Assembly: GCA_040285855.1 (NCBI GenBank)
Contig: JAUFOQ010000016.1
Span: 310,001-374,000, forward strand
Source of the DNA: Eukaryota sp. GEM-RC1
Lineage: Eukaryota
Length of the DNA: 64,000 nucleotides
Reading direction: 5' to 3'
The translations under genes and the position numbers were made by a program. Shown here one piece after another: positions 7,571 through 64,000 of the stretch; position 1 is the stretch's first letter, and every line of letters begins with the position of its first letter. Below the pieces are notes generated by a model that saw only the letters and a program-made list of their open reading frames with translations, did not search any database and was not told where the DNA came from.

Positions 7571-7761
7571 TGAAGAAATTTTGGATTTTCAAAACCAAAA
7601 CGCTTTAAAACCAATATTCGATTAAACGCAGCATTACCATCAAGTCATGGTAGCTCTATCTTGTAAAATGAACAGCAAATATTATAACGAGATTTTTGGG
7701 AAATTTGGACTTTTCAGACTTCTTCTACCTCATTGGTCATCAAAGTTAGACTTGTCAACAG

Positions 7762-34324: not shown

Positions 34325-37300
34325 TGTCTTTTAAATACATGTAGGGAATTTCGGAAACTGATTTCTAGTATCCGATTCACTGATGTTTACAGCGAAATAC
34401 ACTGTATTAGATTAGAAACCAAAATTTCCAGGGTCTGTTTCTAAAGTGTGTACCAAAAAGTTCTCCCAATTTTGAGAAATATTGTAAAGAAAGCCCAACA
34501 GCTAAGCAGCAAGTATAATACAGTGATATCATATCATTGATGTGTGGTCTGAGTTCTGTAAATATGAATAGTGCGATCTGGGACGTTGTGTTGTCAGCAC
34601 ATCATCAATTTGAGTCATTTGTATTCTGTACACACATTTCTAGCAGTTGTTTATGTGAAACAATTCTTTGATGTTCAAAATTATGAAGCAATTTCCCCCA
34701 AAGTGCACTGAACCATTCGAAATGTTGCTGTAACAGAGTGGTACATTACAATGTTTAACAATTGATGCTATATGGAGATGCAAAACTGTCTAAAACACAC
34801 TTTAATATAAAGAACCAAAACTTCAACACTGAGGTGTATAATTAGGTCAATGTCTATTGCAGCCTATGGGTAAAGGATCAGCAAACAAAGAGCCATCTCT
34901 GAAGCCGAGACGATTGTTTGCGTTACTTCCCTAACCTACGGAAGATCCATTTTCAAAAGTAGCAATAACGTGAGAATGCCCCACAGTAACAGTCTTTACA
35001 TTTGATAAATCTCGAACTCGAATAGGAGAGTGAACATTATTTGTTGAATCACTTCTCAATAGTCTGTTTGAATTTTGACCCATTCCATACAATCTTGCAT
35101 CAACCGAAATAAGTAGGATAAATGTTGTTCTCGTGTGGAGACTCTTCACCACAAATCCTTTTGTTGCTACAAGGTATGGGCGAGTTTGACTCACAGTTGA
35201 TCCAATTCCCAGTTGACCTTCGGCGTTTCTTCCCCAAGAGTACAGCAAACCAGACGCAGTTAAAGCATAGCTTGACTCCTCCCCAGCAGCTATGTCAATC
35301 ACATTTGTTAATCCCAGCACATGAATAGCTGAATGGCGATTAGAAGTGGTTTCATCACCCAATTGCCCTTGATTATTTCGACCAAAACTGTAAACTGTTG
35401 AAGAATCTGTTAATACTAATGTATGACTGGCTCCAAGAGCAACTTTTTGAATTGGAATGTTGTTGGGCATGCATAAGGCCACGGGGAGTTTCTGTTATCA
35501 GTATGACCCTGACCTAATTCACCATGTGGGTTCATACCCCAAATCCAAACAGAAGCAGATGACAGCGCAGCATAATGATTGTTTCCTGAGTAAACGTGTT
35601 GGACATTAGATATAGCAGAGATGGGTTCTGGTGTGTCAAAAGCGTTACTAGTGGAAGTTGCACCAATACGTCGATCACCTCTTCCTGCTACATGAACAGA
35701 ACCATCATTCATCAGGATAAGAGAAGCATAATCCCCCAAAGCCACTTCTTTAACAGCAGTAAAAGAAAGGGGAGATTGTGGAAACAGAAACGGAGCGTAA
35801 CTACAAGTAGAAATGCTCAACGAACATCTCCCTCTACCACCAGCCAGTTCACCATATGTACCAGCTCCCCAGGACCATAAACGTCCATTTCTGACAACCA
35901 TGCCGTGTCTATATCTTCCAAGAGCATAGAAATCAGCATATTTCACGTCACTTGCCACGTAAGTAGATCCTGCCTGTGACAGAGCGACAACTGAATCTTC
36001 TTTAGCAAGTGTGATGTCATATAAATTAAACTCACTAAGAGATTCAACACCTACTGAAACAGTTTCATCATCAATAAACTCAATCACAGCAGCTCTCAAC
36101 GCTTCTCGTCGTTGGGTAGAGGACTCAGGATTAGTAACTTCTAGACACAAGAACTCGTGTTGGATAATGTCGAGACGATATTTCTTCCAGCCAATCAGAG
36201 GCAAAAGAACAACAACTTGTAACTGATCTGAGACGTCACCATGAGAAACATGAACATCATACACAGTGTCTTGATGTGTAGCAACAACTTCAATAGACAC
36301 ATCTGCATCTGCTGTAACTTCCAATGCTCTGTTTCTGATAGCAGTGATCTTGTCAGAAGTTGTATTTGCTGATGGTAGGTTTTCGAACTTGTGCGCCTCT
36401 AAAAGAAGAACTGCTTTGGCAACTCTACCTGTACTGGACAACACAAACTGCAGAGCAGAAAAAACCAACACTCGTTCAGCATTAGCTTTAGTAATGACAC
36501 ATTGGAAAGCTGAGTGGATTTGATTAAAAGAGACTTCAAAGTCGACCTCATACCCACTTAAAATACTAGCAATAGAGTTCTTCAACACTTCTTCATGTTC
36601 GTCTTGATCGCTGAGGTCGTCAACTTCCAAAGATGAAGGCATCCCATCTGCAACGACTTCATAAGCATCTTGAACAGCTTGGTCATCTGCAGATAGTACA
36701 AATGAAGTTGTGACTAAAACAACTTGTATCGCTCCTGCTTTGGATATTTCAATTTCCATTCTGAACCAAATGTCCTCTGAGACTACTTTGCTACTGGTTC
36801 CATACTGCTGAGTAACGTCCTGAACAATGTTCAACACGGCAGCTTGTCTGATACTGGAATCATCGACATTAGATACAACAATATTTGAAAATCCATGATT
36901 ATCGATTGCCGTGATTGCATCTCGAACATCCTTAGCTTCCTGACTGAGTACAAAAGTAGGAGAAACATCAGTAAAGTCTGTAGCTTCAGCATAGGTAAGG
37001 CGAATACGAAAGGTGTCTTCATCGAGATAAAGAACTTGAATAGATCCAGGAAAACTCGACACTGCTTCTTCAACATGTTTCTTCACAGCACTTTGTTGTT
37101 GAGTTATACTGTCAATAATGTGCACTGGTAGATCAGTCATCTCTGTAACTTTAATAACGACAAGGCCTTCTTCAATTGCTTGAGCTTGATGAGATAACAC
37201 ATAAGTGGGAAGAATGACAAGCTCCCTAGTTAATGGAGGTAGAGACAGAACAACATTGAAGCCGGTAGCAATTCTGATTAGCTGAAAGTCGACAGAAATC

Positions 37301-39266
37301 AGTGATTGTATCAGTCTTTCGACACCCAGCATTTGCTCTTCTTGGCTATTCAACACGTGAACTGGTACATTTTCAAAGGATTCTTCTTCAAGAACAGTAA
37401 CAGCTAACGACATTTGTTGGCCAATGTCACTAAGTACAAATTGAGGGTCTACCAACAGAGACTCAGTTACACCTCTTAAATTTAGTGACACTTCAAAACC
37501 ATTACCACTTGTGGTCACAGTCAAAGAAACTCCATCAAAGAAATCGAAAGAGTCCAGAAAGTTGGTAAGATATAGAGTTAAAGCTGCTAGGAGAAAGTTT
37601 TCATCATCAAGGTCATGGCTTTCAATACCAACAAAGGACTGTTGTCCCAAGGACATTATTAAGCTAGCCAGTTTCCCTTCATCATTAGTAGTGAATGTAG
37701 CATTAATCATTAAAGATTGTCTAGTCCAAGGTCGATTGACTACCTGTAAAACATACATTTGTCGAGTAGAGGAATATTGAAGGAGATCAATTCTAAATCC
37801 ACGGAATTCCAACAGAATATCTTCAATAACATGACGAAGAGCAGATAGAGTCAATTCAGAATCTTTTGGGTCAAACACTGGAATATTGGAATAATGACCA
37901 CTAGATAACTGATCACCTACAGCTTTAGAACCAATGTGATCGGCAATAATGAGTCCAACAATTACCAAAAGCAAGGCAGACAAACAATAGACTAGTGTAA
38001 GTGTAAATCATTGCATACATATGAGTTTATATGGAATGGGTTTAACGACTGCGGGTGGTTCAGGTCTGAGGGTGGGTACAACTTTGTGGTCTTCAAGGGC
38101 TATATCAAAGTTCGGAAACAGTGGTGGTAAGGAGAGATCGAGATATAAGTCACCGGAGTCAACTAGAGGAGCAGATGGCATAAGACCACCATTAGCAGTA
38201 CAGAATTCATCAATGGCCTCAAATATTTGGGATTTAACATCACCAATGGAAGGACGTCTCTGAGCATGAGGATCAAGCATTCCTGCAATCAAGGACAGTA
38301 TCTTACCATGAAGGCCGGCATCACGAAGGCTACTGATGGTTCTAGTGCGGAAGTTTGGAATAACTCTTTGAGGATCACAATTCAGAATTAAACCTGTTAT
38401 AAGCACCCCAATCGAATATATATCACTTGCAAGAGATGCTTTGACATTTGAGTTGCGAATAAGCTCAGGAGGAAGGTAAGTCTCGGTCCCAATGCCTCTA
38501 GCTTTGATGGTTGCAGTCAACGTAGTTTGGGAAGGAAGATGGAGCTCTAAATCAGCAAGTTTTGCACACAGAATGTGGGATTCATCCTCTAAAAGCAGAA
38601 CATTTCCTGAAATGAGTCATGAGAAGAGATCATACCACTAGATATATCTCGATGAACGATGCCTTCGCTATGAAGGGCATACAGTCCATTGAGGACGCTC
38701 TTTACTATCCGTTTGATCTCATTTTGGTTGAACATGTCTGCAGTGTCGAACTTGTCCTGCACAGAACAAGTCATTTCTTCCATAACGAGACCAGGGGGAG
38801 AAAGTGTCACTCCAAACACTCTAACGATGTTCTCCGGAAACTCAAGTTGTTGAAGAAGGGAGTACTGACTCTTGAGGCTTTTGGCAATGGTACTAGATTC
38901 ACAAGTAGCACGGGGCTGCTTCCAAACAACATCGTTGTCTTGGTATGAGGCTTTGAAGAGGTCACAATTGGGATGTCTACGGATCTCTACCAAATTTAGA
39001 AGCTCGTTCGGCTCGATAATGTTTGGGGTGTCGAGCTCGTCAATGAGTTGCTGCAGAACTATGTTTGGATACAACTCATTGCGCTTGGCCGCACTGTTAC
39101 ACGTAGGACACTGACTTGACCGTAAAAGCAAGGTTTGAACACACGATCTACAAAAGGAATGTCCACATGGCAGCGATACAGGATTTTGAAGTACACCACG
39201 ATGAAGAGTGCACACAATTGACGATAACTTAGACATTGAGAGAAAATCATGCCTTCTTGATTCTGT
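34325..39266. repeat. Segmental duplication, copy A part 1 (direct repeat of 56569-61499)
   Basis: High nucleotide identity; weaker homology extends left (~33870-34020 vs ~52990-53098 plus 54581-54625). Confidence 0.95.
34847..39236 (-). CDS. RING - kinase - TM - stalk repeats - RCC1 receptor-like protein, copy A (possibly pseudogenised); introns 38607-38635 and 37992-38018
   Basis: Same introns as copy B; single-base loss in a C-run at ~35485, compensating indels at ~36190-36205, TGG>TAG at 34931-34933, hAT end 30 bp upstream of the ATG. Confidence 0.8.
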
Positions 39267-40154
39267 AGGGCTGTCAAAAAGACTTCTGGTTGTCCATTTC
39301 ACTTCCATTTCCACCACATTTCTTGAAATCAGTTCCATTTCTATTTCCACTTCCACATTCCTGTTCTTCTTTAACAGTTGTGTTTCTGGATATGATTCTC
39401 TCTCTAAGAGTGTTCCTTACGGGTACATTCGGCATAAGAGAAAGAGATTCAGTGCAAGTTAGCAAATCAATGAATGAGTCCGATTCTACAATGTTTAGTG
39501 AAACGTTATTCAAGACAAAGAAGTGAGTAAGTCTGTCGTCGAACGAGGGGTTGATTTCTTAATGCCAAGAAGTTCAGTAATAGGAGCAGTTCTTTGAGGA
39601 TTTCCTTCTAACCATCCGTTGTGATAGTTATCTAGATGTAACTTTAATCTAGAAGTAGTAACCCGAGATTTATTAGACGGTTTTCCGTCAACATAAGGAC
39701 AAAGAGAGCAAGTTGCTACCTTACCTTGATTGGAAGGGGTAAAGTGCTTCCAAACAGCAGAGGTTTTTTTCTTTAAAGTCGACGGGGATAGTACATTAGC
39801 AGAAGAGGGTTGGTCGAAGTCACTATCATAAACATCAATCGGTGATGACATTCTCATTGTACTTTGGTTAGGAAAAGAAACTACAATGTAATGGGTTATC
39901 AAAATCCATTTCTACGGATTCTTAACATTCTTAATATGTAGAGTAGTTTTAATTATCAACTCGTTTATATACAATACAATATACATTGTAGTTCTACTTT
40001 CATTTTCATATTATATTTCCGTTTCATTTCCGTTTCCATATCATATTTCCGTTTCATTTCCATTTCCATATTCTCAAGAAATTCCGTCTATTTCCACTTC
40101 CAGATGGAAATGGAAGTGAGGAGTGTTGAATTTCATTTCACTTTGCCAAGTTTA
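39266..40154 (-). mobile_element. hAT element fragment with BED zinc finger
   Basis: SAVWKHF..ATCSLC..TSRLKLHLDNYH (ORF 39510-39902); TAGGGCTGTCAA end at 39266; GGAAAT subterminal repeats. Confidence 0.8.
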
Positions 40155-40816
40155 TCAATTTCTCCCAACTCCCATCTCCCATGACCTTTGGGAGTGGGAG
40201 CTCGATATTGGGAGGTGGGAACTCCCAAATACTCCCATCTCCCATTTGCAGACACAACTCTAACTTCAATTTTAAGACAGAAACAAGCTAGCTAGACAAA
40301 TACAGTTATAATTTTTCTAGAATATTAATAGGACTAGGTGTATTACATTTTTACTATCATTGTTTTGTTTTGCTATATGTATTTTCATTTTATAAAGAGT
40401 GTGGTTGATTATCTGTAAATTTCAACTTATGTCATCGCTTGATTTATCTGAAGATCCGGAAATCTCTGGTCTGTTTGATCACCCTGATGTTATCGAATTT
40501 GTTTCCTCTCTTTCAGATTCAAAATTCTAAAAAGAACCACGATAAGAAATGATATGTTGAATGTTTATGATTTATTTAAAGGATAATTGATAGATAAAAT
40601 CAAAAATGTGTGTAGTTCTGCTGAAGTATCTTTTGCGATTGATGAGTGGACATAGAATACAAACACACATTTTATTGGGGTAACAGTTTAAAGTATTGAG
40701 GACTGGAATTTAAACACATACAATGTACGTTCTCGGTTTTAAGCATTTAGAAGAAAACCACACTGCCAATGCTGTGGAAGAAATTATTACTAAATTTGGT
40801 TTAAAATACAAAATGT
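39957..40816. repeat. ~860-bp direct repeat (copy 1) made of two hAT ends plus a hAT transposase remnant
   Basis: Nearly identical to 49296-50160; encodes SFAIDEWT..GVTV..WNLNT..HTAN. Confidence 0.9.
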
Positions 40817-40827
40817 TGTGTTTCAAC

Positions 40828-41818
40828 CATACTTGGAAAATACACCGGCCAAAAATTAATACAAATACAAATACAAAAATACAATACAATGCATGTGTAT
40901 TATTGTATTTGTATTTTTGTATTCTCGAACCCTAACAACTTCTTGATTTACTAGTAAGGTAAGTATATACTAGTAGTACAATAAATGTTCTAGTTCTATG
41001 ATTAAAGTTAATTCGCTTTTCTAGATTTCTTGTGAGAGGTGGTTATTTTAGATCTTATTGGTTTGCCAACTGAAGGACCAATACAATCATAAATCAATGT
41101 AAAATCATAGATTCATCAATTTCATCAATTAAGCTTGCTTCTTCTTCTGAGGAAACTGTTACATGTTCCTGTTCCGGTTTTTCGACAACTTCAATTTCAA
41201 CATCATCGGATCTTGTGTACATCATACTGTCCATCTCTGGTAACAAATCATCATTTGACATTTTTACTTCGTTTTCAATCAGTATAGCATTAACTTGACA
41301 TAACTTTTCTGCCCACTTATCGGCTTGATAGTGACTCTCTCTTGTGTCAGTTTTAAGAACTTGTCCTGCTTGTAAAAAATGAAGCCACAACCTCAACACC
41401 AGACATCCATATTTGTAGAATTGGTCATGTTGGTGATTTTGACCATTATCCTTATTACCTTGTTGCTGTTAACAATGTTGGTATGAAAATTTACAGGAGG
41501 TTTTAGTTTCGGAGATTCCTGATAGTGAGAGGAAGATGTAGAACTCATTGTGGAAATGTACTTACCGAAATTCAAAAATGTTTTATCTCCCCACAGTAGG
41601 AGTTTGAACTGGATTATCTTGATTCACGCAGCAATCGATGGATCAAGAACTGACTCTTTTGTAAGTTGTACATGCTCTAAAGGGCCAAAGGTCGTGTTTC
41701 ATTTTTAGACTTTAGAAGAAATACAGAAAATACAGATATATGGTGAAAAAAAATACAAATACAATTACAAAAAATACAAAATACAAAAAAATACACGTAT
41801 TTGTATTTTTCAAGTATG
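40828..41818. mobile_element. hAT-type non-autonomous element with non-matching flanks
   Basis: TIRs CATACTTGGAAAATAC / GTATTTTTCAAGTATG; AATAC subterminal repeats; flanks GTTTCAAC vs GTTAAGAG. Confidence 0.8.
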
Positions 41819-42470
41819 GTTAAGAGTGAGATTTGGGAGATTCAAAACTGATTGAAACTTCAATTCCTAAACACGAACCCGAATTGGTTTAGTCATCACT
41901 GAAAACTGCTGTTGATGGTGATTCTGTCAATCCTTCATATGCTTTAATACACTATTTTTTTGTAAAGGATTATTACCATTGTCTTCACTTGCCACATGTT
42001 CCCCTAAATGGTGTCACACTTTATAATTAACCAAAGGATGTAGACTTCTGAATTTGGTGAAGTGTCTCAATTGAGGCAAAATTTCGTCAAGTCAAATCCA
42101 AACCCTGCCATTCAAAAATTATCAGAAACACCAATTTCAAATTCTCTAAATGATTCATTTAAAACGAAATAGAGATGATGTGAATAGTCATTTATCACAA
42201 CGATGTCACAAACACAAAAGAATAACTTACTTGGTGCTACTTTCCTGTAGGAAACTTTCAGGAAGTAGTAGCAATTTGTGTTCCTCAAGTTCTTTAAAAG
42301 TTGTTCTAATAGTCATTTCAGCAACATCAGTAACTTGATGAACTTGAGTGAGTGTCTGGCTTAAGTTATAAGCCTGACACACAAATAAATAGCGGCAGCT
42401 GCTAGAGTAGACGGCTGCCTATTAACAGCAATTTTCATCTGAGAGCATTGCGATATAACATGGCCAGCAG
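41819..42470. repeat. Segmental duplication, copy A part 2 (direct repeat of 63359-64000)
   Basis: Near-identical sequence including the 3' end of TFIIB. Confidence 0.95.
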
Positions 42471-45534: not shown

Positions 45535-47385
45535 CAGTATCCTCTCTATATCTTCTCGCTGTATATCTTCTCACTCTCTATAAATTCTCGTTTTTTCAAT
45601 TCCCTAAGTCATTTGGTTATCTAACTTCTCGCTTTATATCTTCTCGCTTTTTATGAGTCAAACTGTACAACAACGGAAACAAAAACCCGTAGAAATCGGT
45701 GTCAAACAGTCAGCACTACTCATTCAGTATGCTGACAAGTATCCACACTTAAAAAATACCGCTCTAGCCCTGTGGGCCAAAGAAACCTTCAATCTTCCTA
45801 CACCTCCTCACCGAACAACTATAGGAAATATACTCAAACGACGTGCCCAAATTCTTGAACAAGCAATTACACTGGAAAAGAACTTAAGACCATCGGCAAA
45901 AGGACACGAACAGTAAAATATCCTGAACTAGATGCAGCTCTTGCTTTGTTTGTGGAAATGAACTCGTCACTGATGACAATCACTGAAGACGTCATTCTGG
46001 CTGAAGCTGAGAAGTTGTATGAAACGCTAGAGATCCCGTTAGAAGGGCATTTAAAACATGGTGACGGTTGGTTTGAATCCTTTAAGCAGAGACATGGCAT
46101 TAAGGTTCTCACTCCTCATGGCCAAGCTGGATCTGTTGATGAAAGGGCTGTGGAAGAATATAGACAGTCTCTTCGGGATTTGTTGCAGCAATATGAAAGC
46201 AGAAACATATGGAATCTAGATGAAGCTGGGCTTTATTGGAGAAAAAACGCATCTACAAGAACACACACTACTCAAAATTCGATTTCTGGATTCAAGGACT
46301 CAAAACAACGAATTACATTAGTGTTCTGTACAAATGCAGCAGGAACGGAAAAGATGCCCCTTGGTATCATAAATAATTCTCTAAAACCAAGAGGAATGAA
46401 GACTAACACGGCAACTTCTTTAAACTTAATTTGGTATGCCAACAAGAAAGCTTGGATGACATCATCCATATTTACCGACTACTGCAAGCGTTTAAGTGAC
46501 AAAATGAAGCAGGAAGACAGAGAAATTTTGCTTTTAATTGACAATGCTCCCTCTCACATATTACAAGAAGAATTGTCCAACATCAGAATCGAATTCTTGC
46601 TTAAAAATGCCACTTCGCACATACAACCTTTGGATGCTGGAATAATAGCAGCTTATAAGAGATATTATTCCAAACAGTTTTTACGAAGATTACTTCCTAT
46701 TGTAGTTGGAGAACGAGTGACTCAAGATGAGGCTCAAAAGAGGATCAAAATTGTGGATAATCTTCCGCTCATAGCCTCGAGTTGGACAATGGTAACACAG
46801 CAATGTATCGCGAATTGCTGGGGAAAGGTAGGTCTCACAAATGACAACCTAAACGAAGCTGAAGAAGCTGCAGTCTCGGATGAGCGTGATTTCGCATTAC
46901 TGAGAGAGTTCGATATGACGGAAGCAGAGTTTGAGCTTATGGTAAATGAAGATTATGAGACGCTGACAGAAGGGATACTTTCAGTTGAAGAATGCTTGGA
47001 ACAGGTTACGGACAATAATCAGGAGATTTATGACAATCATGAAGAAGATCTACAACCACAGGCTGAAGTCACTAGAACAGAAGCATATAATGCTCTTAGA
47101 GCTTTGCAATCCTATGTTTCTGCCAACTTTCACTCAAAACACGCCTCGTTATACACTTTGGATGAAGTTGAACGTGAGTTGGAGGAATTAAGAGTTGGAG
47201 AATTGAGGCAAAGAACTTTGATGCACTTTTTACACTCTACAAACGAATCACATGTGATTGATATTGAGTAGACTCAATAAACATATGTTTTATTTGGGTT
47301 TTTAACATAATTGTATAACTTCTCGCTTTCTATATCTTCTCGGTTTTTGTGTTCCCAAAGGCGAGAAGATATAGAGAGGATACTG
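45535..47385 (+). mobile_element. Full-length pogo/Tigger-like DNA transposon (1851 bp)
   Basis: Perfect 25-bp TIRs CAGTATCCTCTCTATATCTTCTCGC with TA TSD; TATATCTTCTCG subterminal repeats. Confidence 0.97.
45653..47271 (+). CDS. pogo/CENP-B-like DDE transposase (one frameshift at ~45870)
   Basis: HTH regions, GWFESFKQRHGI, WNLDEAGL, LLIDNAPSH, IQPLDAGII. Confidence 0.92.
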
Positions 47386-49295
47386 TATTTCGTTTGTCGT
47401 TGATTCTGATGTTAAGTCCATCAGCAGTTAGTAATCCAAGGCATTTCAGTACATCACAGCCTATGAGGAGTTGTTTTTTGCCAGATAAAACGGGACGTTT
47501 GACTTCTAAGTGGACACGTTTAGGGGATTCGTTACCCATTAAGAGGGATAGTTCGGTATGGTACCTACCTTGGCTCTTCACAATTCGGCCATCGACAACT
47601 TCGAATTCATTAACTTTGGAATGATCGAGATATCCGACGTTTTCGTCAATCAAATCAGCGGTGATGCAGGACTTGATACAACCTGTATCAATCAATCCAC
47701 GAACCTTGCGGGTGCCGACTAAAACGTCTAGTTCCAGAAGAGGGGAAGCAGCAGTGGCTTTGAAAAGTCCTCTGGCGGAGGTTCTGACAAAGTTAGGGGT
47801 ATCAGAGTCTGAATCAGAAATGAAGGAACTAATATGAGGCTTTGGGACATTAGCTGGTTGGGAAGCTTTAGCAGTTGACTTTTGACGAGTGTTATGAGTT
47901 TTAAAGTGAGTAGGGTTTCTGGGGTTTTTGCCTTTCTGGTAATTAGAGTTGTTGGAAGTTTTAGAGGAAGGAGATCGACATTCGCTAGCATAGTGACCTA
48001 TCTTATTGCAATTAAAGCAAGTGATAGTACTTTTGTCGGGGGTACGAGGAGAGCGTGGTTCAGATCGAGGGGTACTGAATCTCGTTGAAGGAGCGGGGGA
48101 AGAGTAGTTAGATCGAGAGTTGGAAGGAGAGGATCGAGATCCTGGTGAGTTACGAGGATTAGAGAATCGTTGGAAGGAACGTCTCTGGTTAGTGTTTCGG
48201 TTGGAAAAGGGTTCAGCGGCTTTAAGTCGAGAAGAATGTTCGAGATGAACGGTCAAGAGTTGATGAGTTTCTTGAATAAGTTGTGGTAAAGAGTGGATTT
48301 GTTTAAAGTCTACGGCTTTCTTGAGAGTGGAGGAGATTGAATCGGGTTTGAGATTTTTGAGGAATTCTAGCATAAGTTGTTTCTGAGGGATGTCGAGTTC
48401 AGAGAGTCTTCTACAAGTCTTAGAGAACGAGGCAATGTAGTCGAATAAGCGACTGAAAGGATCACGGATGGAATGATTCATGGATGAAGATGAAAGAAGG
48501 CGGACAGCATGTTCTAAGGTCTTGACTTTAGTTAGGTCAAGGAGGAAGTTCCATAAAGTAAATTGGTTTGTTAGAGAGTGAGGAGAAATGAGATGGATGG
48601 AATTCATAACATCGCGGGATACAAAGACGTGGAAATCGTCTGGAGGAGTCAGAGTTTCTTCAAATGGCGAAGGAATAGTGGCGGCGGTTGCTCCGGTCAC
48701 GTTTTCTTCGGCTTCAGCAGTAATGGCGGAGCGAGCACTTTCTAATTGTTCTTTCAGTTCTGGTGAGAGGTTCAGTTCTAACAGAGAGTCAAGGGAACCG
48801 ATGGTAGGTTCAGAGGTAGCAGTGGAGGTTCTTGGTACCGTGTAAATATAGCTTCCGAGGAGTGAGTTATCGGAGTCTTCCTTAGTAATGGCATAAGCGG
48901 CCATGTCATCTATCCAGCATAAAATGTGTTCGGCGTCCAAAGTCTTAAGAAGGGGTACTTTGGTTCTAATTCCTTTTCTTCCGAGGGAGGAATTCAGCAA
49001 GGCGACGTTACGGTCGGATGTTCTTGCTTCTTCGAGGTCTGTATCCGAGGCGTAGTTTAGCGAACGGAGAGACAGAGGAGCGGCGGCAACTTCTGGGCGG
49101 CGGCTCGAATAAAGGTTCGGATGAGAGGAGGCATGGCAGCAGTCCTCGTCATCTACGGTGACATGAATATGATCACAATAATTATTGTTGACTATACCGT
49201 CAAATGGGGCACTAGTATCAGAGAAAATATAAGACATAGGTTTATGAGACGGAGATAAGTAAAATCTATAAGGTAAAATATAAAAATAAACAACA

Positions 49296-50160
49296 CAACT
49301 CGTTTATATACAATACAATATACATTGTAGTTCTACTTTCATTTTCATATTATATTTCCGTTTCATTTCCATTTCCATATTATATTTCCGTTTCATTTCC
49401 ATTTCCATATTCTCAAGAAATTCCGTCTATTTCCACTTCCAGATGGAAATGGAAGTGGAGAAATGTTGAATTTCATTTCACTTTGCCAAGTCTATCAATT
49501 TCTCCCAACTCCCATCTCCCATGACCTTTGGGAGTGGGAGTGGAGCTCATTGTTGGGAGGTGGGAACTCCCAAATACTCCCATCTCCCATTTGCAGACAC
49601 AACTCTAACTTCAATTTTAAGACAGAAACAAGCTAGCTAGACAAATACAGTTATAATTTTTCTAGAATATTAATAGGACTAGGTGTATTACATTTTTACT
49701 ATCATTGTTTTGTTTTGCTATATGTATTTTCATTTTATAAAGAGTGTGGTTGATTATCTGTAAATTTCAACTTATGTCATCGCTTGATTTATCTGAAGAT
49801 CCTGAAATCTCTGGTCTGTGGAAGCATCCTGATGTTATCGAATTTGTTTCCTCTCTTTCAGATTCAAAATTCTAAAAAGAACCACGATAAGAAATGATAT
49901 GTTGAATGTTTATGATGTATTTAAAGGGTAATTGATAGATAAAATCAAAAATGTGTGTAATTCTGCTGAAGTATCTTTTGCGATTGATGAGTGGACATAG
50001 AATACAAACACACATTTTATTGGGGTAACAGTTCAAAGTATTGAGGACTGGAATTTAAACACATACAATGTACGTTCTCGGTTTTAAGCATTTAAAAGAA
50101 AACCACACTGCCAATGCTGTGGAAGAAATTATTACTGAATTTGGTTTAAAATACAAATGT
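49296..50160. repeat. ~860-bp direct repeat (copy 2)
   Basis: Nearly identical to 39957-40816. Confidence 0.9.
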
Positions 50161-56444: not shown

Positions 56445-57075
56445 GATAATTTATTATAGTTGGTCAAAAGAACACTACCAGTACTTGTACTGTACGTGCG
56501 TACGTACAGTACAATACGCCTAAAATCGTCGCGCAACGGAACATTTGCGTTCCATGCATGTGACACAATGTCTTTTAAAAAGCACGTAGGGAATTTCGAA
56601 TACTGGTTTCTAGTATCCGATTCACTGATGTGGACAGCGAAATACACTGTATTAGAAACCAAAATTTCCAGGGTCTGTTTCTAAAGTGTGGAGCAATAAG
56701 TTCTCCCCCTTTGTTGAGAAATACTGTGAAGAAAGACCAACAGCTAAGCGGCAAGTATAATACAGTGATATGTGGTGTGAGTTCTCTATATCTGAATAGT
56801 TCGATGTGGGGCGATGTGTTGTCAGCACATCATCAATTGGAGTCAATTGTGATATGTACACACATTTCTAGCGGTTGTTTATGTGAAACAATCTTTGATG
56901 CTCAAAATTATACAACAATTCCCCCCAAAGTGCACTGAACCATTCGAAATGCTGCTGTAAACAGAGTGGTAAATTACAATGTTTTACAATTGATGCTATA
57001 AGGGGATGCAAAACTGTTTGAAACACACTTTACTAAGAAAACACAACACTTCCACAATGAGGGAGTAAAAAAAGG

Positions 57076-60000
57076 TCAATGTCTATTGCAGCCTATGGGT
57101 AAAGGATTAGCATACAAAGAGCCATCTCTGAAGCCGAGACGATTGTTTGCGTTACTTCCCCAACCTACGGAAGATCCATTTTCAAAAGTAGCAATAACGT
57201 GAGAATGCCCCACAGTAACGGTCTTTACATTTGATAAATCTCGAACTCGAATAGGGGAGTGAACATTTTCAGTAGATTCACTTCTTAATTGGTGGTTTGA
57301 ATTATGACCCATTCCATACAGTCTAGCATCAACCGAAATAAGTAGGATAAATGTTGTTCTCGTGTGGAGACTCTTCGCCACAAATCCTTCAGTTTCTACA
57401 AGGTATGGGCGAGTTTGACTCACAGCTGACCCAATTCCTAGTTGTCCTTCAGCGTTTCTTCCCCAAGAGTAGAGCACACCAGACGCAGTTAAAGCATAGC
57501 TTGACTCCTCCCCAGCAGCTATGTCAATCACATTTGTTAATCCCAGCACATGAATAGGTGAATGGCGATTAGAAGTGGTTGCATCACCCAATTGACCGTG
57601 ATTATTTCGACCAAAACTGTAAACTGTTGAAAATTCTGTTAAGAACATTGAATGACTGACACCGAGAGAAACTTTTTGAATTGGAATGTTGTTTGGCATG
57701 GATAAGGCCGTGGGAATGTTTCTGTTAGAAGTATGGCCCAGACCCAACTCACCATAGGGGTTCAAACCCCACGTCCAAACAAAACCAGATGACAGCGCAG
57801 CATAATGCGTGTTTCCCGAGTAAACGTGTTGGACATTAGATACAACAGAAAGAGCTCGTGGTGTATCATAAGCACGATCGGTTCTGGGTGCTCCAATGTG
57901 ATGACTGCCTCGACCCGCTACACTGACAGAACCATCATTGAACAGAATAAAAGAGGACCAACTTCCTAATGCCACCTCTTTGACGGTAGTATAAGATAGA
58001 GGAGACCTGGGATACAAATAGGAACCGTGAGTACCGCAGGTTCCACCAAAGGTACATCGATCCCCTCTACCACCAGCCAGTTCACCATTGCTTCCAGCTC
58101 CCCAAGACCATAAACGTCCATTTTTGATCGCCATGCCGTGTCTATATCTTCCCAAAGAATACAAATCAGCATATTTCACGTCACTCGCCACATAAGTAGA
58201 TCCTGCCTGTGACAGAGCGACAACTGAATCATCTTTTGTTAGTGTAATGTCATAGAAGTTGAACTCACTTCGAGAGTCAACACCTACTGAAACAGTTTCA
58301 TCATCAATAAACTCAATCACAGCAGCTCTCAATGCTTCTCGTCGTTGGGTAGAGGACTCTGGATTAGTAACTTCTAGACACAAGAATTCGTGTTGGATAA
58401 TATCAAGGCGGTATTTGTTTAACAAATCAGAGGCAAAAAGAACAACAACTTGTAACTGATCTGAGATGTCACCATGAGAAACATGAACATCATAAACAGT
58501 GTCTTGATGTGTAGCAACAACTCCAATAGACACCTCTGCATCTGCTGTAACTTCCAATGCTCTGTTTCTGATAGCAGTGATCTTGGCAGAAGTCGTAGTT
58601 GCTGATGGTAGGTTTTCGAACTTGTGCGCCTCTAAAAGAAGAACTGCTTTGGCAACTCTACCTGTACTGGACCATACAAACTGCAGAGCAGAAAAAACCA
58701 ACAGTCGTTCAGCATCAGCTTTAGTAATGACACATTGAAAAGCTGAGTGGATTTGATTAAACGAGACTTCAAAGTCGACATCATACCCACTTAAAATACT
58801 AGCAATATAGTTCTTCAACACTGCTTCATGTTCGTCTTGATCGCTGAGATCGTCAACTTCCAAAGATGAAGGCATCCCACCTTCAACAACTTCATAAGCA
58901 TCTTGAACAGCTTGGCCATCTGCAGATAGTACAAATGAAGTTGTGACTAAAACAACTTGTATCGCTCCTGCTTTGGATATTTCAATTTCCATTCTAAACC
59001 AAATGTCCTCTGAAGCTACTCTGCTACTGGTTCCATACTGCCGAGTAACGTCCTGAACAATGTTCAACACGGCAGCTTGTCTGATACTGGAATCATCGAC
59101 ATTAGATACAACAATATTTGAAAATCCATGATTATCGATTGCTGTGATTGCATCTCGAACATCATTGGCTTCTTGACTGAGTACAAAAGTAACAGGAACA
59201 TCAGTAAAGTCTGTAGCTTCGGCATAGGTAAGGCGAATACGGAAGGTGTCTTCATTGAGATAAAGAACTTGAATAGATCCAGGAAAACTCGATACTGCTT
59301 CTTCAACATGTTTCTTCACCGCATTTTGTTGTTGAGTTATACTGTCAATAATGTGCACTGGTAGATCAGTCATTTCTGTAACTCTAATAACGACAAGGCC
59401 TTCTTCAATTGCTTGAGCTTGATGAGATAACACATAGGTTGGGAGAATGACATGCTCCCTAGTTAATGGAGGTAGAGACAGAACAACATTGAAGCCGGTA
59501 GCAATTCTGATAAGCTGAAAGTCGACAGTAATCAGTGATTGAATCAGTCTTTCAACACCTAGCATTTGCTCTTCTTGACTGTTCAGTACATGAACTGGTA
59601 CATTATCAAAGGATGCTTCTTCAAGAACAGTAACAGCTAACGACATTTGTTGGCCAATGTCACTAAGTCCAAATTGAGGGTTTACCAAAATAGATTCAGT
59701 TACACCTCTTATATTTAGTGACACTTCAAAACCATTGCCACTTCTGGTCACAGTCAAAGCAACTCCATCAAAGAAATCGAAAGAGTCAAGACAATTGGTA
59801 ACATAGAGAGTTAAAGCGGTCAGGAGAAAGTTTTCATCATCAAGGTCATGGCTTTCAATACCAACAAAGGACTGTTGTTCCAAGGACATTATTAAGCTAG
59901 CCAGTTTCCCTTCATCATTAGTAGTGAATGTAGCATTAATCATTAGAGATTGTCTAGTCCAAGGTCGATTGACTACCTGTAAAGCATACATTTGTCGAGT

Positions 60001-61469
60001 AGAGGAATATTGAAGGAGATCAATTCTAAATCCACGGAATTCCACCAAAATATCTTCAATTATATGCCGAAGAGCAGATAGAGTCAAGTCAGAATCTTTT
60101 GGGTCAAACACTGGAATATTTGAATATTGACCACCTGATAACTGATCACCTACAGCTTTAGAACCAATGTGATCAGCAACAATGAGTCCAACAATTACCA
60201 AAAGCAAGGCAGACAAACAAAAGACTAGTGTAAGTGCAGATCTTTACATACATATGAGTTTCCATGGGATGGGTTTAACGACTGCGGGTGGTTCAGGTCT
60301 GAGGGTGGGTACAACTTTGTGGTCTTCAAGGGCTATATCAGAGCTCGGAAACAGTGGTGGTAAGGAGAGATCGAGATACAAGTCACCAGAGTCAACTAGA
60401 GGAGCAGATGGCATAACACCACCATTAGCAGCACAGAATTCATCAATGGCCTCAAATATTTGGGATTTTACATCACTAATGGAAGGACGTCTCTGAGCAT
60501 GAGGATCAAGCATTCCTGCAATTAAGGACAGTATCTGACCATGAAGGCCGGCATCACGAAGGCTACTGATGGTTCTAGTACCGAAGTTTGGAATGACTCT
60601 TTGAGGGTCACAATTCAGAATTAAACCTGTTATAAGCACCCCAATCGAATATATATCACTTGCAAGAGATGCTTTGACATTTGAGTTGCGAATAAGTTCA
60701 GGAGGAAGGTAAGTCTCGGTCCCAATGCCTCTAGCTTTGATGGTTGCGGTCAGAGTAGTTTGGGAAGGAAGATGGAGCTCTAAATCAGCAAGTTTTGCAC
60801 ACAAAATGTGGGATTCATCCTCCAAAAGCAGAACATTTCCTGAAATGAGTCACGAGAAGAGATCATACCACTAGATATATCTCGATGAACGATGCCTTCG
60901 CTATGAAGGGCATACAGACCATTGAGAACGCCCTTTACTATCCGTTTGATCTCATTTTGGTTGAACATGTATGCAGTGTCGAACTTGTCCTGCACAGAAC
61001 AAGTCATTTCTTCCATAACGAGACCAGGGGGAGAAAGAGTCACACCAAACACTCTAACGATGTTCTCCGGAAACTCAAGTTGTTGAAGAAGGGAGTACTG
61101 ACTCTTGAGGCTTTTGGCAATGGTACTAGATTCACAAGAAGCACGGGGCTGCTTCCAAACAACATCGTTGTCTTGGTATGAGGCTTTGAAAAGGTCACAA
61201 TTGGGATGTCGACGGATCTCTAGCAAATTTAGAAGCTCGTTCGGCTCGATAATGTTTGGGGTGTCGAGCTCGTCAATGAGTTGCTGCAGGACTATGTTTG
61301 GATACAACTCATTGCGCTTGGCCGCACTGTTACACGTAGGACACTTACTTGACCGTAAAAGCAAGGTTTCAACACACGATCTACAAAAGGAATGTCCACA
61401 TGGCAGCGATACAGGATTTTGAAGGACACCACGATGAAGAGTGCACACAATTGACGACAACTTAGACAT
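57076..61469 (-). CDS. RING - protein kinase - single TM - ~8 stalk repeats - RCC1 beta-propeller; predicted type II receptor-like kinase, copy B (~1445 aa); introns 60840-60868 and 60225-60251
   Basis: Removing the two GT-AG introns leaves a 4338-nt open frame; RING CTLH..CGHSFCRSC..CPTC; kinase VVWK, HRDISSGN, ADLE, YLPPE, SDIYSIG; TM LIFFCLSALLLVIVGLIVA; RCC1 WGxNxxGQLG repeats. Confidence 0.88.
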
Positions 61470-61683
61470 TGAGAGAAAATCCTGCCTTCTTGATTCTGTC
61501 AATTTGAAATGATGAACAACTCAGAACCATTCGCCACCAGTTCATGTGTAACACCATTGAGTAGCTCGCTCATGGTACGTACAAATTATCTGTTATGGGT
61601 GTAGTTTTACAGGCTTTGTAAAACAGAATTGTGTGATATAACAATCGATGTGGAGTTACCACATATTATATTTATATTCTAAT

Positions 61684-63357
61684 TTACAAGTAGATGTTCA
61701 ACATGGGAAACTTTGATCGCATCAATCTAGTTTGTGCCTCCGATACCTGATCTTTTGAGAGAAACAAGGCTGGTTCATATATATCATTACGTAATCGATA
61801 CTCACCAATAAAGCCACGAGAGCGCAGCAACGGCGTAATGTCTGACACATCGGAATTCTCAAGTATCAAATATTGTAAGGACAAATACGATAAGGGAGCT
61901 AGATTTTTCACTCTAGTGTTTCCCAGTCCCAATACACGCAAATTAACCAATCCGGATAGGGGTGAAATATCTTGAATCTTAGTAAACTGGAGAAACAACA
62001 CTTCTAACTTAACTAAGTCAGCAAGTGGAGATACATCGGATACACGAGTTCTTGTCAAATCAAGAACAATCAGATTTGAGAGGGAGCTCAATGGTGAAAT
62101 GTCAGAAATGTTGCCAACAGATAAGATCAACTCCTTTAAGTTGATCATCCACATTAGAGGGGTGAAGTCATCTGATTTGATACCAAAAAGGTCCAGTTTT
62201 TCAAGGTGTCTTAAATTTTTAATTTTAATAACAGTGCCTCGTCCAATGTCAGCACAGTTTCGGATTACCTCTTCAAACTTTGAACCTGAATCGAAGTGAA
62301 AAATGTCTTCATCAGATGGTGCGACAACGACATTGTTATCACGATTGGCTGAGAAATCAAGAAATGACTGTTGAACATTCACAACGTTATTGACATTTGG
62401 AAATGAATCACAAGCAAGTGATGGGCTCGCAACTGGAGCTATTGAATGATTACGAAGACTCCTAGGTCGATGAATTTCCACAGAACATAATTGACACAGA
62501 TAGGTATCACACTGACAACAATAAAGAGTTGCTTCAGCATTGGAGCATTCTACACAGACTTGAATTGTTGGAGAAGACAGAGAAGATGTCAGTGAAACAT
62601 CAAAAACCGGAACTGTCGAATATTGTGGATGAGTAGGAGAATATAGGTTCTGAATTTGTCCAGGCAAAGTATTGTGGATCCCAGTGCTTCCAAGAGATCC
62701 AGTAGAATAAGCAAGTTGTTGTTGCAAAGACAGAAATCCATTTCTCATCTCAGAACAAATCGTTTCAGTGTGAGAGGACAGAACAGAATGTAGTGCTTGA
62801 TCGCGATCGATGATCGCTTCAATTGAGCTATTTGATAGCTTTTCTAGAGTCTTACCAGTGAAACCGATAAGCACTTCGTGTGAAAAGTTGTCCAATAGTC
62901 TGTTACAATCCAAAAATTGTCGTTTGAACGTCTCTCGACAAAACACTCTTTTGAGCAAACCTGCATCATCATGTTGAGATATGGATTGCCTAACTTTGTT
63001 GCACAGCTCAACGAAATGTAAGATGACTTGACGTAAACCCCTACATTTCGAGAGATCAGGGACTCTGAGCAAAGGAGAAACAATGAGTTCGGTGAGACGA
63101 AGCATTCTTGCGCCCAGCACTGCAGATTCAGATTTGTTAATCTTGACAGTCTTTATGGTTGAGAAAAGAGTTTGAAGTCCAGAGCCTAGAGGTTGCAAGA
63201 TAACTGAAGAAGCCATAACGACAGCAGCCAGCCGCAACACCGAATGTCCAACAGTGTCGATGAAAAGCTGTGGATTGATCTCCGCAAGATGATAGGGAAC
63301 ATCAGAAAGCATGGCACATAAAGATGAACTTAGATTCTGGTCCGTAGATCTGGACAT
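61684..63357 (-). CDS. MLKL-N-terminal-like helical bundle - B-box zinc finger - LRR protein
   Basis: aa ~55-165 IKTVKINKSESAVLGARMLRL..LLKRVFCRETFKRQFLDCNRLLD; B-box CVEC..CCQCDTYLCQLC..IH..H; 22-aa LxxLxLxxxxIxDISPL LRRs. Confidence 0.78.
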   Translation of the reverse strand: MSRSTDQNLSSSLCAMLSDVPYHLAEINPQLFIDTVGHSVLRLAAVVMASSVILQPLGSGLQTLFSTIKTVKINKSESAVLGARMLRLTELIVSPLLRVPDLSKCRGLRQVILHFVELCNKVRQSISQHDDAGLLKRVFCRETFKRQFLDCNRLLDNFSHEVLIGFTGKTLEKLSNSSIEAIIDRDQALHSVLSSHTETICSEMRNGFLSLQQQLAYSTGSLGSTGIHNTLPGQIQNLYSPTHPQYSTVPVFDVSLTSSLSSPTIQVCVECSNAEATLYCCQCDTYLCQLCSVEIHRPRSLRNHSIAPVASPSLACDSFPNVNNVVNVQQSFLDFSANRDNNVVVAPSDEDIFHFDSGSKFEEVIRNCADIGRGTVIKIKNLRHLEKLDLFGIKSDDFTPLMWMINLKELILSVGNISDISPLSSLSNLIVLDLTRTRVSDVSPLADLVKLEVLFLQFTKIQDISPLSGLVNLRVLGLGNTRVKNLAPLSYLSLQYLILENSDVSDITPLLRSRGFIGEYRLRNDIYEPALFLSKDQVSEAQTRLMRSKFPMLNIYL

Positions 63358-63756
63358 TGTTAAGAGTGAGATTTGGGAGACTTCAATTCATGAACTATTG
63401 ACACTAACCCGAATTGGTTTAGCATCACTGAAAACTGCTGTAGATGGTGATTCTGTCAATCCTTCATATGCTTTAATACAGTATTTTTTTGTAAAGGATT
63501 ATTACCATTGTATTCACTTGCCACATGTTCCCCTAAATGGTATCACACATTATAACTAACCAAAGGATGGAGACTTCTGAATTTGGTGAAGTGTCTCAAT
63601 TGTGGCAAAATTTCGTCAAGTAAATTGCAAACCCTGCTATTGAAAAGTTAATCGGAAACACCAATTTCAAATTCTCTAAATGATTCATTTAAAACGAAAT
63701 AGAGATGATGTGAATAGTCATTTATCACAACGATGTCACAAACACAAAAGAATAAC

Positions 63757-64000
63757 TTACTTGGTGCTACTTTCCTGTAGGAAACTTTCAGGAAGTAGTA
63801 GCAATTTGTGTTCCTCAAGTTCTTTAAAAGTTGTTCTAATAGTCATTTCAGCAACATCAGTAACTTGATGAACTTGAGTGAGTGTCTGGCTTAAGTTATA
63901 AGCCTGACACACAAGCCAAATAGCGGCAGCTGCTAGAGTAGACGGCTGCCTATTAACAGCAATTTTCATCTGAGAGCATTGCGATATAACATGGCCAGCA
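63757..64000 (-). CDS. TFIIB: TFIIB copy B, 3' part (5' end outside window)
   Basis: RQPSTLAAAAIWLVCQ..VAEMTIRTTFKEL in one intact frame. Confidence 0.9.
   Translation of the reverse strand, partial: AGHVISQCSQMKIAVNRQPSTLAAAAIWLVCQAYNLSQTLTQVHQVTDVAEMTIRTTFKELEEHKLLLLPESFLQESSTK

What the first reader, a model, noticed from the sequence alone, without database searches (positions are those of the whole stretch)
57076..61469. Hidden 'inverted' receptor kinase: RING-kinase-TM-stalk-RCC1 joined by two micro-introns
Seen: the ORF track shows three genes. A 29-nt intron (60840-60868, GTATG..TTTCAG) restores the catalytic loop HRDISSGNVLL. A 27-nt intron (60225-60251, GTATG..CACTAG) removes the kinase stop and joins it in frame to the 1046-aa ORF, which has no ATG of its own (it was called from TTG). 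Both introns keep their length and splice sites in the paralogue (38607-38635, 37992-38018), and the 27-nt intron differs internally. The junction creates KPIPWK-LIFFCLSALLLVIVGLIVA-DH, a single hydrophobic helix with Lys before and Asp after, and there is no signal peptide. Knowledge: familiar receptor kinases (animal RTKs, plant RLKs) are type I with a C-terminal kinase. Inference: N-terminal cytoplasmic RING E3 plus kinase, and a C-terminal extracellular RCC1 propeller on a stalk, so one chain could couple sensing to phosphorylation and ubiquitination. I do not recognise this architecture as described.
Basis: partly seen in the sequence, partly recalled or inferred. Interest (0 to 1): 0.92.

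Follow-up and report, generated by a model that had tools for sequence, protein, structure and literature searches.

The report
Inverted ubiquitin-ligase receptor with degenerate kinase
A soda-lake protist gene, predicted to be spliced through two tiny introns, encodes a likely membrane receptor built back to front, with a predicted ubiquitin ligase and a worn-down kinase likely inside the cell and a propeller on a repeat stalk likely outside, so binding outside would likely be turned into protein tagging inside rather than phosphorylation.

Summary
Removing the 29-nt and 27-nt introns gives a 1445-aa chain identical to a deposited but unnamed model (KAL0235740.1, Skoliomonas sp. GEM-RC). Two proteins of Skoliomonas sp. 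RCL (41-45% identical) share the order RING, kinase, one membrane helix, stalk, RCC1 propeller; one aligns without a gap across the second junction only if exactly 27 nt are removed. No RNA reads could be obtained. The stalk is eight copies of an unmatched ~82-aa alpha/beta unit (seven and three in the relatives). The reading needs one correction: the kinase is degenerate (no Gly loop, alphaC Glu to Gln, DFG to DLE) and both RCL relatives lack the catalytic Asp, so phosphorylation is unlikely to be the shared output. The RING is intact and is predicted to dimerise like TRIM/Riplet RINGs. Best reading: a type II receptor-like E3 ligase switched on by clustering (0.5). The in-window paralogue is broken and only weak support. 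Each part has precedent (bacterial PknD topology, plant CRINKLY4, KEG); the combination was not found in print.

The parts
60869..61469 (-). Exon 1: start codon, RING (aa 1-70) and kinase N-lobe up to HRDISS
   Evidence: same N-terminus in the RCL relatives
61260..61469 (-). RING-HC zinc finger (ligands C9, H12, C24, H26, C29, C32, C43, C46) with a flanking helix; best solved relatives RNF135/Riplet, RNF4, COP1, TRAF6, TRIM21
   Evidence: predicted dimer interface 4-7, 16-27, 56-68
60840..60868 (-). Intron 1, 29 nt, phase 1, in the catalytic loop
   Evidence: restores HRDISSGNVLL as in intact family rows
60252..60839 (-). Exon 2: kinase C-lobe and Pro-rich linker
60436..61259 (-). Degenerate protein kinase domain (aa ~71-335, spans intron 1): K106, D197, N202, D219, E248 kept; no Gly loop, Q124 for alphaC Glu, DLE for DFG
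60225..60251 (-). Intron 2, 27 nt (3n), phase 1, holds the in-frame TAA at 60246-60244
60175..60258 (-). Single transmembrane helix, aa 395-413 (spans intron 2); basic residues on the N side
58183..60162 (-). Stalk of eight tandem ~82-aa alpha-beta-alpha-beta-beta-beta units (aa 418-1077), no Pfam family or clear solved fold
57076..58182 (-). RCC1-like beta-propeller (aa 1078-1445) and stop codon; N-terminal blades are the most divergent part between the two copies
57076..60224 (-). Exon 3: most of the membrane helix, stalk and propeller
34847..39236 (-). Paralogue B (deposited as P0001, KAL0235083.1): same two introns, but a 1-nt deletion at 35488/35487 and a premature stop at 34933-34931; pseudogene or assembly error

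Best explanation
The gene is predicted to splice into one 1445-aa chain that is likely a type II membrane receptor whose likely output is ubiquitination: a repeat stalk would hold an RCC1-like propeller outside the cytosol, and binding of a multivalent ligand would cluster the chains and dimerise the cytosolic RINGs into a likely active E3 ligase. Shown in the sequence: reading frame after splicing, domain order, one hydrophobic helix, intact zinc ligands, eight stalk units, degenerate kinase motifs, and the same architecture in a second species. Predicted: N-in/C-out topology, stalk fold, RING-RING dimer. Inferred: the kinase domain acts mainly as a regulatory or docking module between membrane and RING, as in receptor guanylate cyclases; the ligand (prey-bacterium surface, virus or another cell) and the substrates are unknown.
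For: Spliced chain equals the deposited model. P0020 and P0021 of Skoliomonas sp. RCL have RING, kinase, one hydrophobic helix and RCC1; the four rows form one branch, 97/95, among 27 rows. Of six removals tried (0, 27, 96, 102, 117, 141 nt), 27 nt scores best and leaves no internal gap against P0020 across the helix. No second hydrophobic segment and no N-terminal signal; basic:acidic residues within 20 aa on the N side are 4:1, 4:1, 5:0, 4:0 in the four rows against 1:2, 1:2, 3:2, 2:3 on the C side. Stalk units: 0 of 300 shuffles reach the leave-one-out score for each of 8 units; 7 units in P0020, 3 in P0021; model of units 6-8 pLDDT 92.4. RING dN/dS 0.20 and kinase 0.12 between the copies. 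HRD Asp in 2 of 4 subfamily rows and 13 of 24 family rows; alphaC Glu in 0 of 24; GxGxxG in 0 of 24. Two copies of aa 1-338 fold as a RING-RING dimer: score 0.44, best of 3 controls 0.00, contacts agree at least 79%, pLDDT at least 81; the mark was reached by 20 of 30 solved pairs and 1 of 23 single chains (eukaryotes 17 of 29 and 0 of 30). Clustering activates TRIM21, TRIM5, TRAF6 and RIPLET RINGs (PMC7900206, passages).
Against: Splicing was not observed in RNA, and the deposited models are predictions: the same pipeline bridges the frameshift of copy B with an implied 29-nt intron inside a conserved blade. The window kinase keeps all three residues (K, D, D) by which pseudokinases are usually defined (PMC4718504), and is under the strongest purifying selection of all parts, so it may be active. 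The dimer score is barely above the mark (0.44 against 0.42) and may be memory of solved RING dimers. The residue after the last RING Cys is Asn/Asn/Asn/Ser in the four rows, where most family rows have Arg, which may weaken E3 activity (role of that residue recalled). The C-terminal part has few marks of a secreted domain: 2 sequons in 1031 aa and 6 Cys. P0132, a relative with kinase, helix and stalk, has no RING or propeller in its model, and its helix flanks are not asymmetric. No ligand, location or substrate evidence.
Confidence: 0.5

Rival explanations
1. One reading: an active, atypical receptor kinase with two outputs, phosphorylation and ubiquitination, like a membrane-bound KEG.
For: K106, D197, N202, D219, E248, D262 and R318 are all kept; kinase dN/dS 0.12; the HRDISxGN / D-L-acidic form scores against the fungal kinase family PF17667; some kinases work without canonical motifs (PMC4718504, passages).
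Against: No Gly in the 30 residues before K106, Gln at the alphaC Glu, Glu at the DFG Gly; both RCL relatives and P0132 lack the catalytic Asp, so activity is not conserved in the subfamily.
Confidence: 0.2
2. A membrane-anchored E3 of an inner compartment (ER, food vacuole, endosome) or a surface adhesin: the propeller picks up cargo or substrates and the RING works constitutively, with no signal switch.
For: Topology does not tell plasma membrane from lumen; variable stalk length (8, 7, 3 units) also suits an adhesin; weak fold likeness to streptococcal adhesin domains (Z 5.1); the cells eat bacteria in food vacuoles (PMC11603281, passages).
Against: A long stalk suits reaching out from a surface; a conserved kinase fold between helix and RING suggests regulation (inference).
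Confidence: 0.15
3. The fused membrane chain is a minor or absent product: intron 2 is retained (soluble RING-kinase of 398 aa), or a downstream acceptor skips the helix and gives a soluble kinase-RCC1 protein like NEK8/NEK9.
For: In-frame acceptors exist at 96, 102, 117, 141 and 156 nt; most RING-kinase relatives are soluble (of 23 hits with a RING-like N-terminus, 4 have a strong hydrophobic segment, one of them a C-terminal tail); P0028 has RING, kinase and RCC1 without a helix.
Against: Other introns read from conserved genes in this window are 30-32 nt; the helix and its flanks are kept gap-free in P0020; exon 3 has no Met before the helix; both copies carry a stop inside the 3n intron at different codons.
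Confidence: 0.1
4. A product of domain shuffling in a repeat-rich genome, with no coupling between the parts.
For: The RING-kinase module carries many different tails (Sel1, ubiquitin-like, RCC1, tail anchor); copy B is decaying; the genome is 48% repetitive (PMC11316075, Table 1).
Against: Whole architecture kept in two species at 41-45% identity; dN/dS below 1 in every part.
Confidence: 0.05

Closest known systems
Bacterial Hanks-type receptor kinases: PknD (propeller sensor), PknB/PrkC (PASTA stalk), and P0017 of Mycobacterium sp. URHD0025 (kinase-TM-RCC1)
   Same: N-terminal cytoplasmic kinase, one helix, C-terminal outer repeats or propeller (PMC6213207, passages).
   Different: Eukaryotic intron-bearing gene; adds a RING; degenerate kinase; kinase does not group with P0017 (long branch); stalk is a different, unmatched repeat.
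Plant CRINKLY4/ACR4 and CCR1-4
   Same: [quoted passage not shown]
   Different: Type I with signal peptide and C-terminal kinase, TNFR domain, CWG Cys motifs, no RING, no stalk.
Arabidopsis KEEP ON GOING (KEG)
   Same: N-terminal RING followed by a kinase and C-terminal interaction repeats (PMC5385374, passages).
   Different: KEG has ankyrin and HERC2-like repeats and an active kinase; no membrane helix or ectodomain is described in the passages read.
Clustering-activated RING ligases (TRIM21, TRIM5, RNF135/RIPLET, TRAF6)
   Same: RING with flanking helix; best solved matches; predicted RING-RING dimer.
   Different: Those are cytosolic sensors or adaptors, not single-chain membrane receptors with a kinase fold.
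Receptor guanylate cyclases
   Same: Ectodomain, one helix, pseudokinase next to the effector enzyme (PMC4718504, passages).
   Different: Type I; the effector is a cyclase, not an E3.
NEK8/NEK9 and Giardia Neks
   Same: Kinase with RCC1 in NEK8/9 (recalled); expanded, largely inactive kinases, some with RING, in Giardia (PMC3218828, passages).
   Different: Soluble; the Giardia RING is C-terminal; that paper concludes Giardia has no receptor kinases.

Membership tests
Type I receptor kinases (RTK, plant RLK, CRINKLY4) | Signal peptide, N-terminal ectodomain, C-terminal kinase | tested here: not met
   Only hydrophobic segment is 395-413 and the kinase precedes it; conserved N-terminus starts in the RING. 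Hydropathy only; no SignalP.
CRINKLY4 family | RCC1-like outer propeller | tested here: met
   PF25390 202.6 bits, PF00415 five stretches; outer location is predicted.
CRINKLY4 family | TNFR Cys domain and C(X10)CWG crinkly motifs | tested here: not met
   Six Cys in aa 414-1445; no TNFR Pfam match at E<=1.
Bacterial Hanks receptor kinases (PknB/PknD type) | Kinase-TM-outer sensor order | tested here: met
Bacterial Hanks receptor kinases (PknB/PknD type) | Kinase descends from bacterial receptor kinases | tested here: inconclusive
   Groups within the skoliomonad RING-kinases, apart from P0017, but only one bacterial row on a long branch was in the tree.
Active protein kinase | beta3 Lys, HRD Asp, DFG Asp | tested here: met
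   K106, D197, D219; not met in P0020 and P0021.
Active protein kinase | Gly-rich loop, alphaC Glu, DFG Gly | tested here: not met
   No Gly in the loop, Q124, E221.
Active protein kinase | Phosphotransfer | not testable with these tools
   needs an assay
RING-HC E3 ligase | Eight zinc ligands in RING spacing | tested here: met
   C9, H12, C24, H26, C29, C32, C43, C46 (second ligand His); PF13923, PF00097, PF13639 above cut-off.
RING-HC E3 ligase | E2-dependent ubiquitin transfer | not testable with these tools
   needs an assay
KEG family | Ankyrin and HERC2-like repeats | tested here: not met
   No ankyrin match at E<=1.
Stalk as a known repeat fold (gp25/TssE-like, adhesin 'unique' domain) | Clear structural match | tested here: inconclusive
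   Best Z 6.8 (rmsd 3.1, 75 aligned) among 48161 chains, none at Z>=8; no Foldseek PDB match at E<=0.001.

The most novel reading that the evidence does not exclude
Skoliomonads independently built a new receptor class, a single-chain 'receptor ubiquitin ligase': a cytosolic RING-pseudokinase cassette was joined in bacterial-style reverse orientation to a length-adjustable stalk of an undescribed repeat and a variable propeller, so that touching prey or virus clusters the receptor and fires ubiquitin chains directly, a job that animals split between receptor, adaptor and TRAF/TRIM ligase.
Probability: 0.35. Interest if true: 0.82.

Novelty: new variant of a known kind. Interest (0 to 1): 0.62.

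Why it matters
How free-living anaerobic protists sense prey, viruses or each other is open, and the best-studied relative, Giardia, was judged to have no receptor kinases (PMC3218828). This names a concrete candidate receptor subfamily in the sister lineage. It also suggests that kinome surveys looking for signal peptide plus C-terminal kinase could miss type II receptors. A one-chain link from outer ligand to RING activation would be a new signalling layout and a natural template for ligand-gated E3 ligases. The stalk unit is a well-predicted repeat domain without a family. Limits: the organism has no genetics that I found, the model is already deposited as a hypothetical protein, and each part has a precedent.

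Tried and rejected
Whole genome: none held. RNA: no RNA holder listed, so no reads were laid; this is no evidence on expression. Single-sequence fold of aa 1-341 failed (pLDDT 34). ESM Atlas: no usable hit for aa 420-1075; the search on aa 1-420 did not complete. Word-based protein searches missed even the 41-45% relatives, so absence in S. litria, Barthelona or other groups is not shown; the 50%-cluster library can also hide members. Pfam: no match at cut-off for 9 stalk rows. Fold searches: no clear match in PDB; 8 viral matches at E<=0.001 all have TM-score (query) at most 0.34. Alignment A3 misaligned the repeats and was dropped; A2 was not used. Intron-scan shuffle control (8 candidates in the window, 0-4 in 20 shuffles) is weak because shuffling destroys ORFs, and 2 of the 8 are out-of-frame artefacts. 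Positive selection on the propeller: rejected; dN and dS both rise (0.20, 0.49; dN/dS 0.41), which fits patchy gene conversion or segment exchange. Paralogue as proof of the introns: rejected as weak. UVR8-like photoreceptor: top solved match is UVR8 but that reflects RCC1 repeats; the Trp array was not tested. Origin of the propeller from bacteria: not resolved (32-34% to several metagenome proteins, 33% to a short stretch of alsin). Literature: searches gave 0 papers; one search gave 5 and one search gave 1, none on such a receptor by title and abstract start; one search listed 9 Skoliomonas papers, none on kinases by title; locus numbers and 'RCC1' were absent from 5 of the 6 held supplements of PMC11316075; file 6 (scan) and the large supplementary PDF could not be read and may hold intron or domain data. 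Earlier findings: nothing shown.
Full report
Observation. The minus strand holds three stop-to-stop frames over 57076-61520 that match RING plus kinase N-lobe, kinase C-lobe, and RCC1. Removing 60868-60840 and 60251-60225 joins ATG 61469 to TGA 57076 into 1445 codons without a stop. The product is identical to P0016, deposited as KAL0235740.1, hypothetical protein GEMRC1_002322 of Eukaryota sp. GEM-RC1. That name corresponds to Skoliomonas sp. GEM-RC, a free-living anaerobic, bacteria-eating metamonad of soda lakes (PMC11603281, passages; PMC11316075, passages and section 6). Its gene models came from AUGUSTUS trained on RNA-seq mapping and checked with PASA (PMC11316075, passage). Introns of 30-32 nt also restore conserved motifs in a Cdc14-like phosphatase (5787-5816) and an aminotransferase (32746-32776, 33193-33224) of this window, so micro-introns are ordinary here.

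How firm is the second junction? It was not observed in RNA. The deposited model is not proof: for the second copy the pipeline bridges a frameshift with an implied 29-nt intron inside a propeller blade. The paralogue is weak support, being 92% identical in DNA and broken by a 1-nt deletion at 35488/35487 and a TAG at 34933. The better evidence is from another species. An HMMER search with aa 1-422 against 1.84 billion representatives (best 150 listed) returned P0020 (1356 aa) and P0021 (1005 aa), RCL1_006008 and RCL1_001309 of Skoliomonas sp. RCL. Both have RING, kinase, one hydrophobic helix, stalk and RCC1 and are 45% and 41% identical to P0016. Of six removals tried, 27 nt aligns best and without an internal gap across the helix of P0020 (scores 155 against 137, 95, 101, 90, 68). 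These relatives are also predicted models. I put the spliced, fused chain at about 0.9.

Topology. One 19-residue window stands out (KD 3.13 at 395-413; next 1.70) and the N-terminus is hydrophilic. All four rows start at the same MSK directly before the RING. Basic residues outnumber acidic ones on the N side in all four rows. A zinc RING and a kinase fold belong in the cytosol (established knowledge), so N-in/C-out follows, about 0.85. Against: few sequons or Cys in the C-terminal part, and P0132 shows no charge asymmetry. Plasma membrane versus inner compartment is untested.

Stalk. Residues 418-1077 are eight tandem units of 78-85 aa, 11-25% identical to each other; for each unit a profile built from the other seven scores 19.6-36.2 bits and 0 of 300 shuffles reach that (unit starts were set by hand). 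Among 168 stored proteins the profile hits 5: both window copies (8 units), P0020 (7), P0021 (3) and P0132. P0132 (RCL1_004924) has a dead kinase, a helix and the stalk but no RING or propeller in its model. AlphaFold2 on units 6-8 with a 9-row alignment gives pLDDT 92.4, pTM 0.73 and a helix-strand-helix-three-strand unit. No solved structure matches clearly (best Z 6.8, rmsd 3.1, 75 aligned), which does not show that the fold is new.

Kinase. The window kinase keeps K106, D197, N202, D219, E248, D262 and R318, so it passes the usual three-residue test (PMC4718504, passages). It has no Gly in the 30 residues before K106, Gln where KSR2 has the alphaC Glu, and DLE for DFG. This is family-wide: of 24 RING-kinase rows picked from the hits (18 named as skoliomonad, 6 not looked up), 0 have the alphaC Glu, 0 a GxGxxG loop and 13 the HRD Asp. 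Both RCL members of the membrane subfamily read HCN. The four membrane rows form one branch (97/95, 27 rows). So the architecture is conserved while catalysis is not, although the kinase fold is under strong purifying selection (dN/dS 0.12; RING 0.20; stalk 0.28). The wider family is a RING-kinase cassette with many tails (Sel1, ubiquitin-like, RCC1 without a helix, tail anchor, 31 of 150 hits scanned); 18 of 20 hits looked up by name are skoliomonad.

RING. Eight zinc ligands are present, the second being His. Best solved relatives are RNF135/Riplet, RNF4, COP1, TRAF6 and TRIMs. Two copies of aa 1-338 are modelled as a dimer through the RING and its flanking helix (residues 4-7, 16-27, 56-68): score 0.44, best of 3 controls 0.00, contact agreement at least 79%, pLDDT at least 81; the mark was reached by 20 of 30 solved pairs and 1 of 23 single chains, on eukaryotes 17 of 29 and 0 of 30. 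The score is near the mark and like dimers are solved, so it shows likeness, not binding. RING dimerisation and clustering switch on TRIM21, TRIM5, TRAF6 and RIPLET (PMC7900206, passages).

Propeller. Residues 1078-1445 are RCC1-like. The first blades differ most between the copies (60% identity at 1126-1200), but dS rises with dN (dN/dS 0.41), so this is not shown to be positive selection. A variable loop there is flanked by two Cys in 3 of 4 rows, possibly a disulphide (inference).

Mechanism. Most likely (0.5): a type II receptor-like E3. A multivalent ligand would bind propellers held out on stalks of tunable length, cluster the chains and dimerise the RINGs; the degenerate kinase would act as gate or docking site. 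Rivals: active dual-output kinase (0.2), constitutive E3 or adhesin of an inner or surface membrane (0.15), soluble products (0.1), uncoupled shuffle (0.05).

Comparison and novelty. The reverse layout is standard in bacteria, where PknD has a propeller sensor and PknB a PASTA stalk (PMC6213207, passages), and P0017 of a Mycobacterium has kinase, helix and RCC1. CRINKLY4 puts an RCC1-like propeller outside a type I receptor kinase, with near-inactive members (PMC4617170, passages). KEG joins RING and kinase (PMC5385374, passages). The protein is a member of none of these: it fails the type I, CRINKLY4 and KEG tests and its kinase sits among skoliomonad RING-kinases. Searches found no description of the combination; the library lacks most subscription journals. 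Verdict: real gene model, new variant of known receptor kinds, better called a receptor-like ubiquitin ligase than a receptor kinase; interest 0.62.

Noticed in passing
window 34325-42469 and 56569-64000: Segmental duplication about 22 kb apart: the receptor gene (92% identical, 4.95 kb) and the 3' half of a TFIIB gene (41816-42469 and 63356-64000, 94%) both recur; upstream similarity of copy B stops about 30 nt before its ATG, where a BED-finger transposon remnant lies (39510-39911).
   Followed up: partly
window 35487 and 34931-34933: Copy B has a frameshift and a premature stop in the propeller; the deposited model P0001 bridges the frameshift with an implied 29-nt intron that is probably spurious.
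   Followed up: yes
window 39957-40812 and 49296-50157: Direct repeats of about 860 bp, 97% identical; one abuts a gag/protease-like ORF (47330-49303, minus), which ends next to a DDE_1/Tc5 transposase (45859-47271). Probably LTRs of a retrotransposon.
   Followed up: no
window 61684-63387 (-): Upstream neighbour of copy A: 567-aa frame with an unassigned helical N-terminal region, a B-box and internalin-like LRR_4 repeats; not present next to copy B.
   Followed up: no
P0022-P0036, P0039, P0045, P0073-P0076, P0145: An apparently undescribed skoliomonad family of RING plus degenerate kinase proteins with exchangeable tails (Sel1, ubiquitin-like, RCC1, second kinase, C-terminal membrane anchor); none of 24 rows has the alphaC Glu or a GxGxxG loop.
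   Followed up: partly
P0132 (RCL1_004924): Second type II architecture: dead kinase, membrane helix with adjacent Cys pair, same stalk repeats, no RING or propeller in the model.
   Followed up: partly
window 5787-5816, 32746-32776, 33193-33224 (+): Micro-introns of 30-32 nt in a Cdc14-like phosphatase and an aminotransferase; one starts GTGTG.
   Followed up: partly
window 1586-2287, 19101-19703, 25548-27506: Several BTB/POZ frames, two of them recent duplicates (1644-2024 and 18941-19320, 94%).
   Followed up: no
window 7750-11849 (+): Long T-rich open frames (316, 311, 761 aa) with no Pfam match at E<=0.01, beside a DEAD-type helicase.
   Followed up: no
P0008/P0017: Mycobacterial kinase-TM-RCC1 proteins: a bacterial counterpart of the same inverted layout with the same propeller type.
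   Followed up: partly
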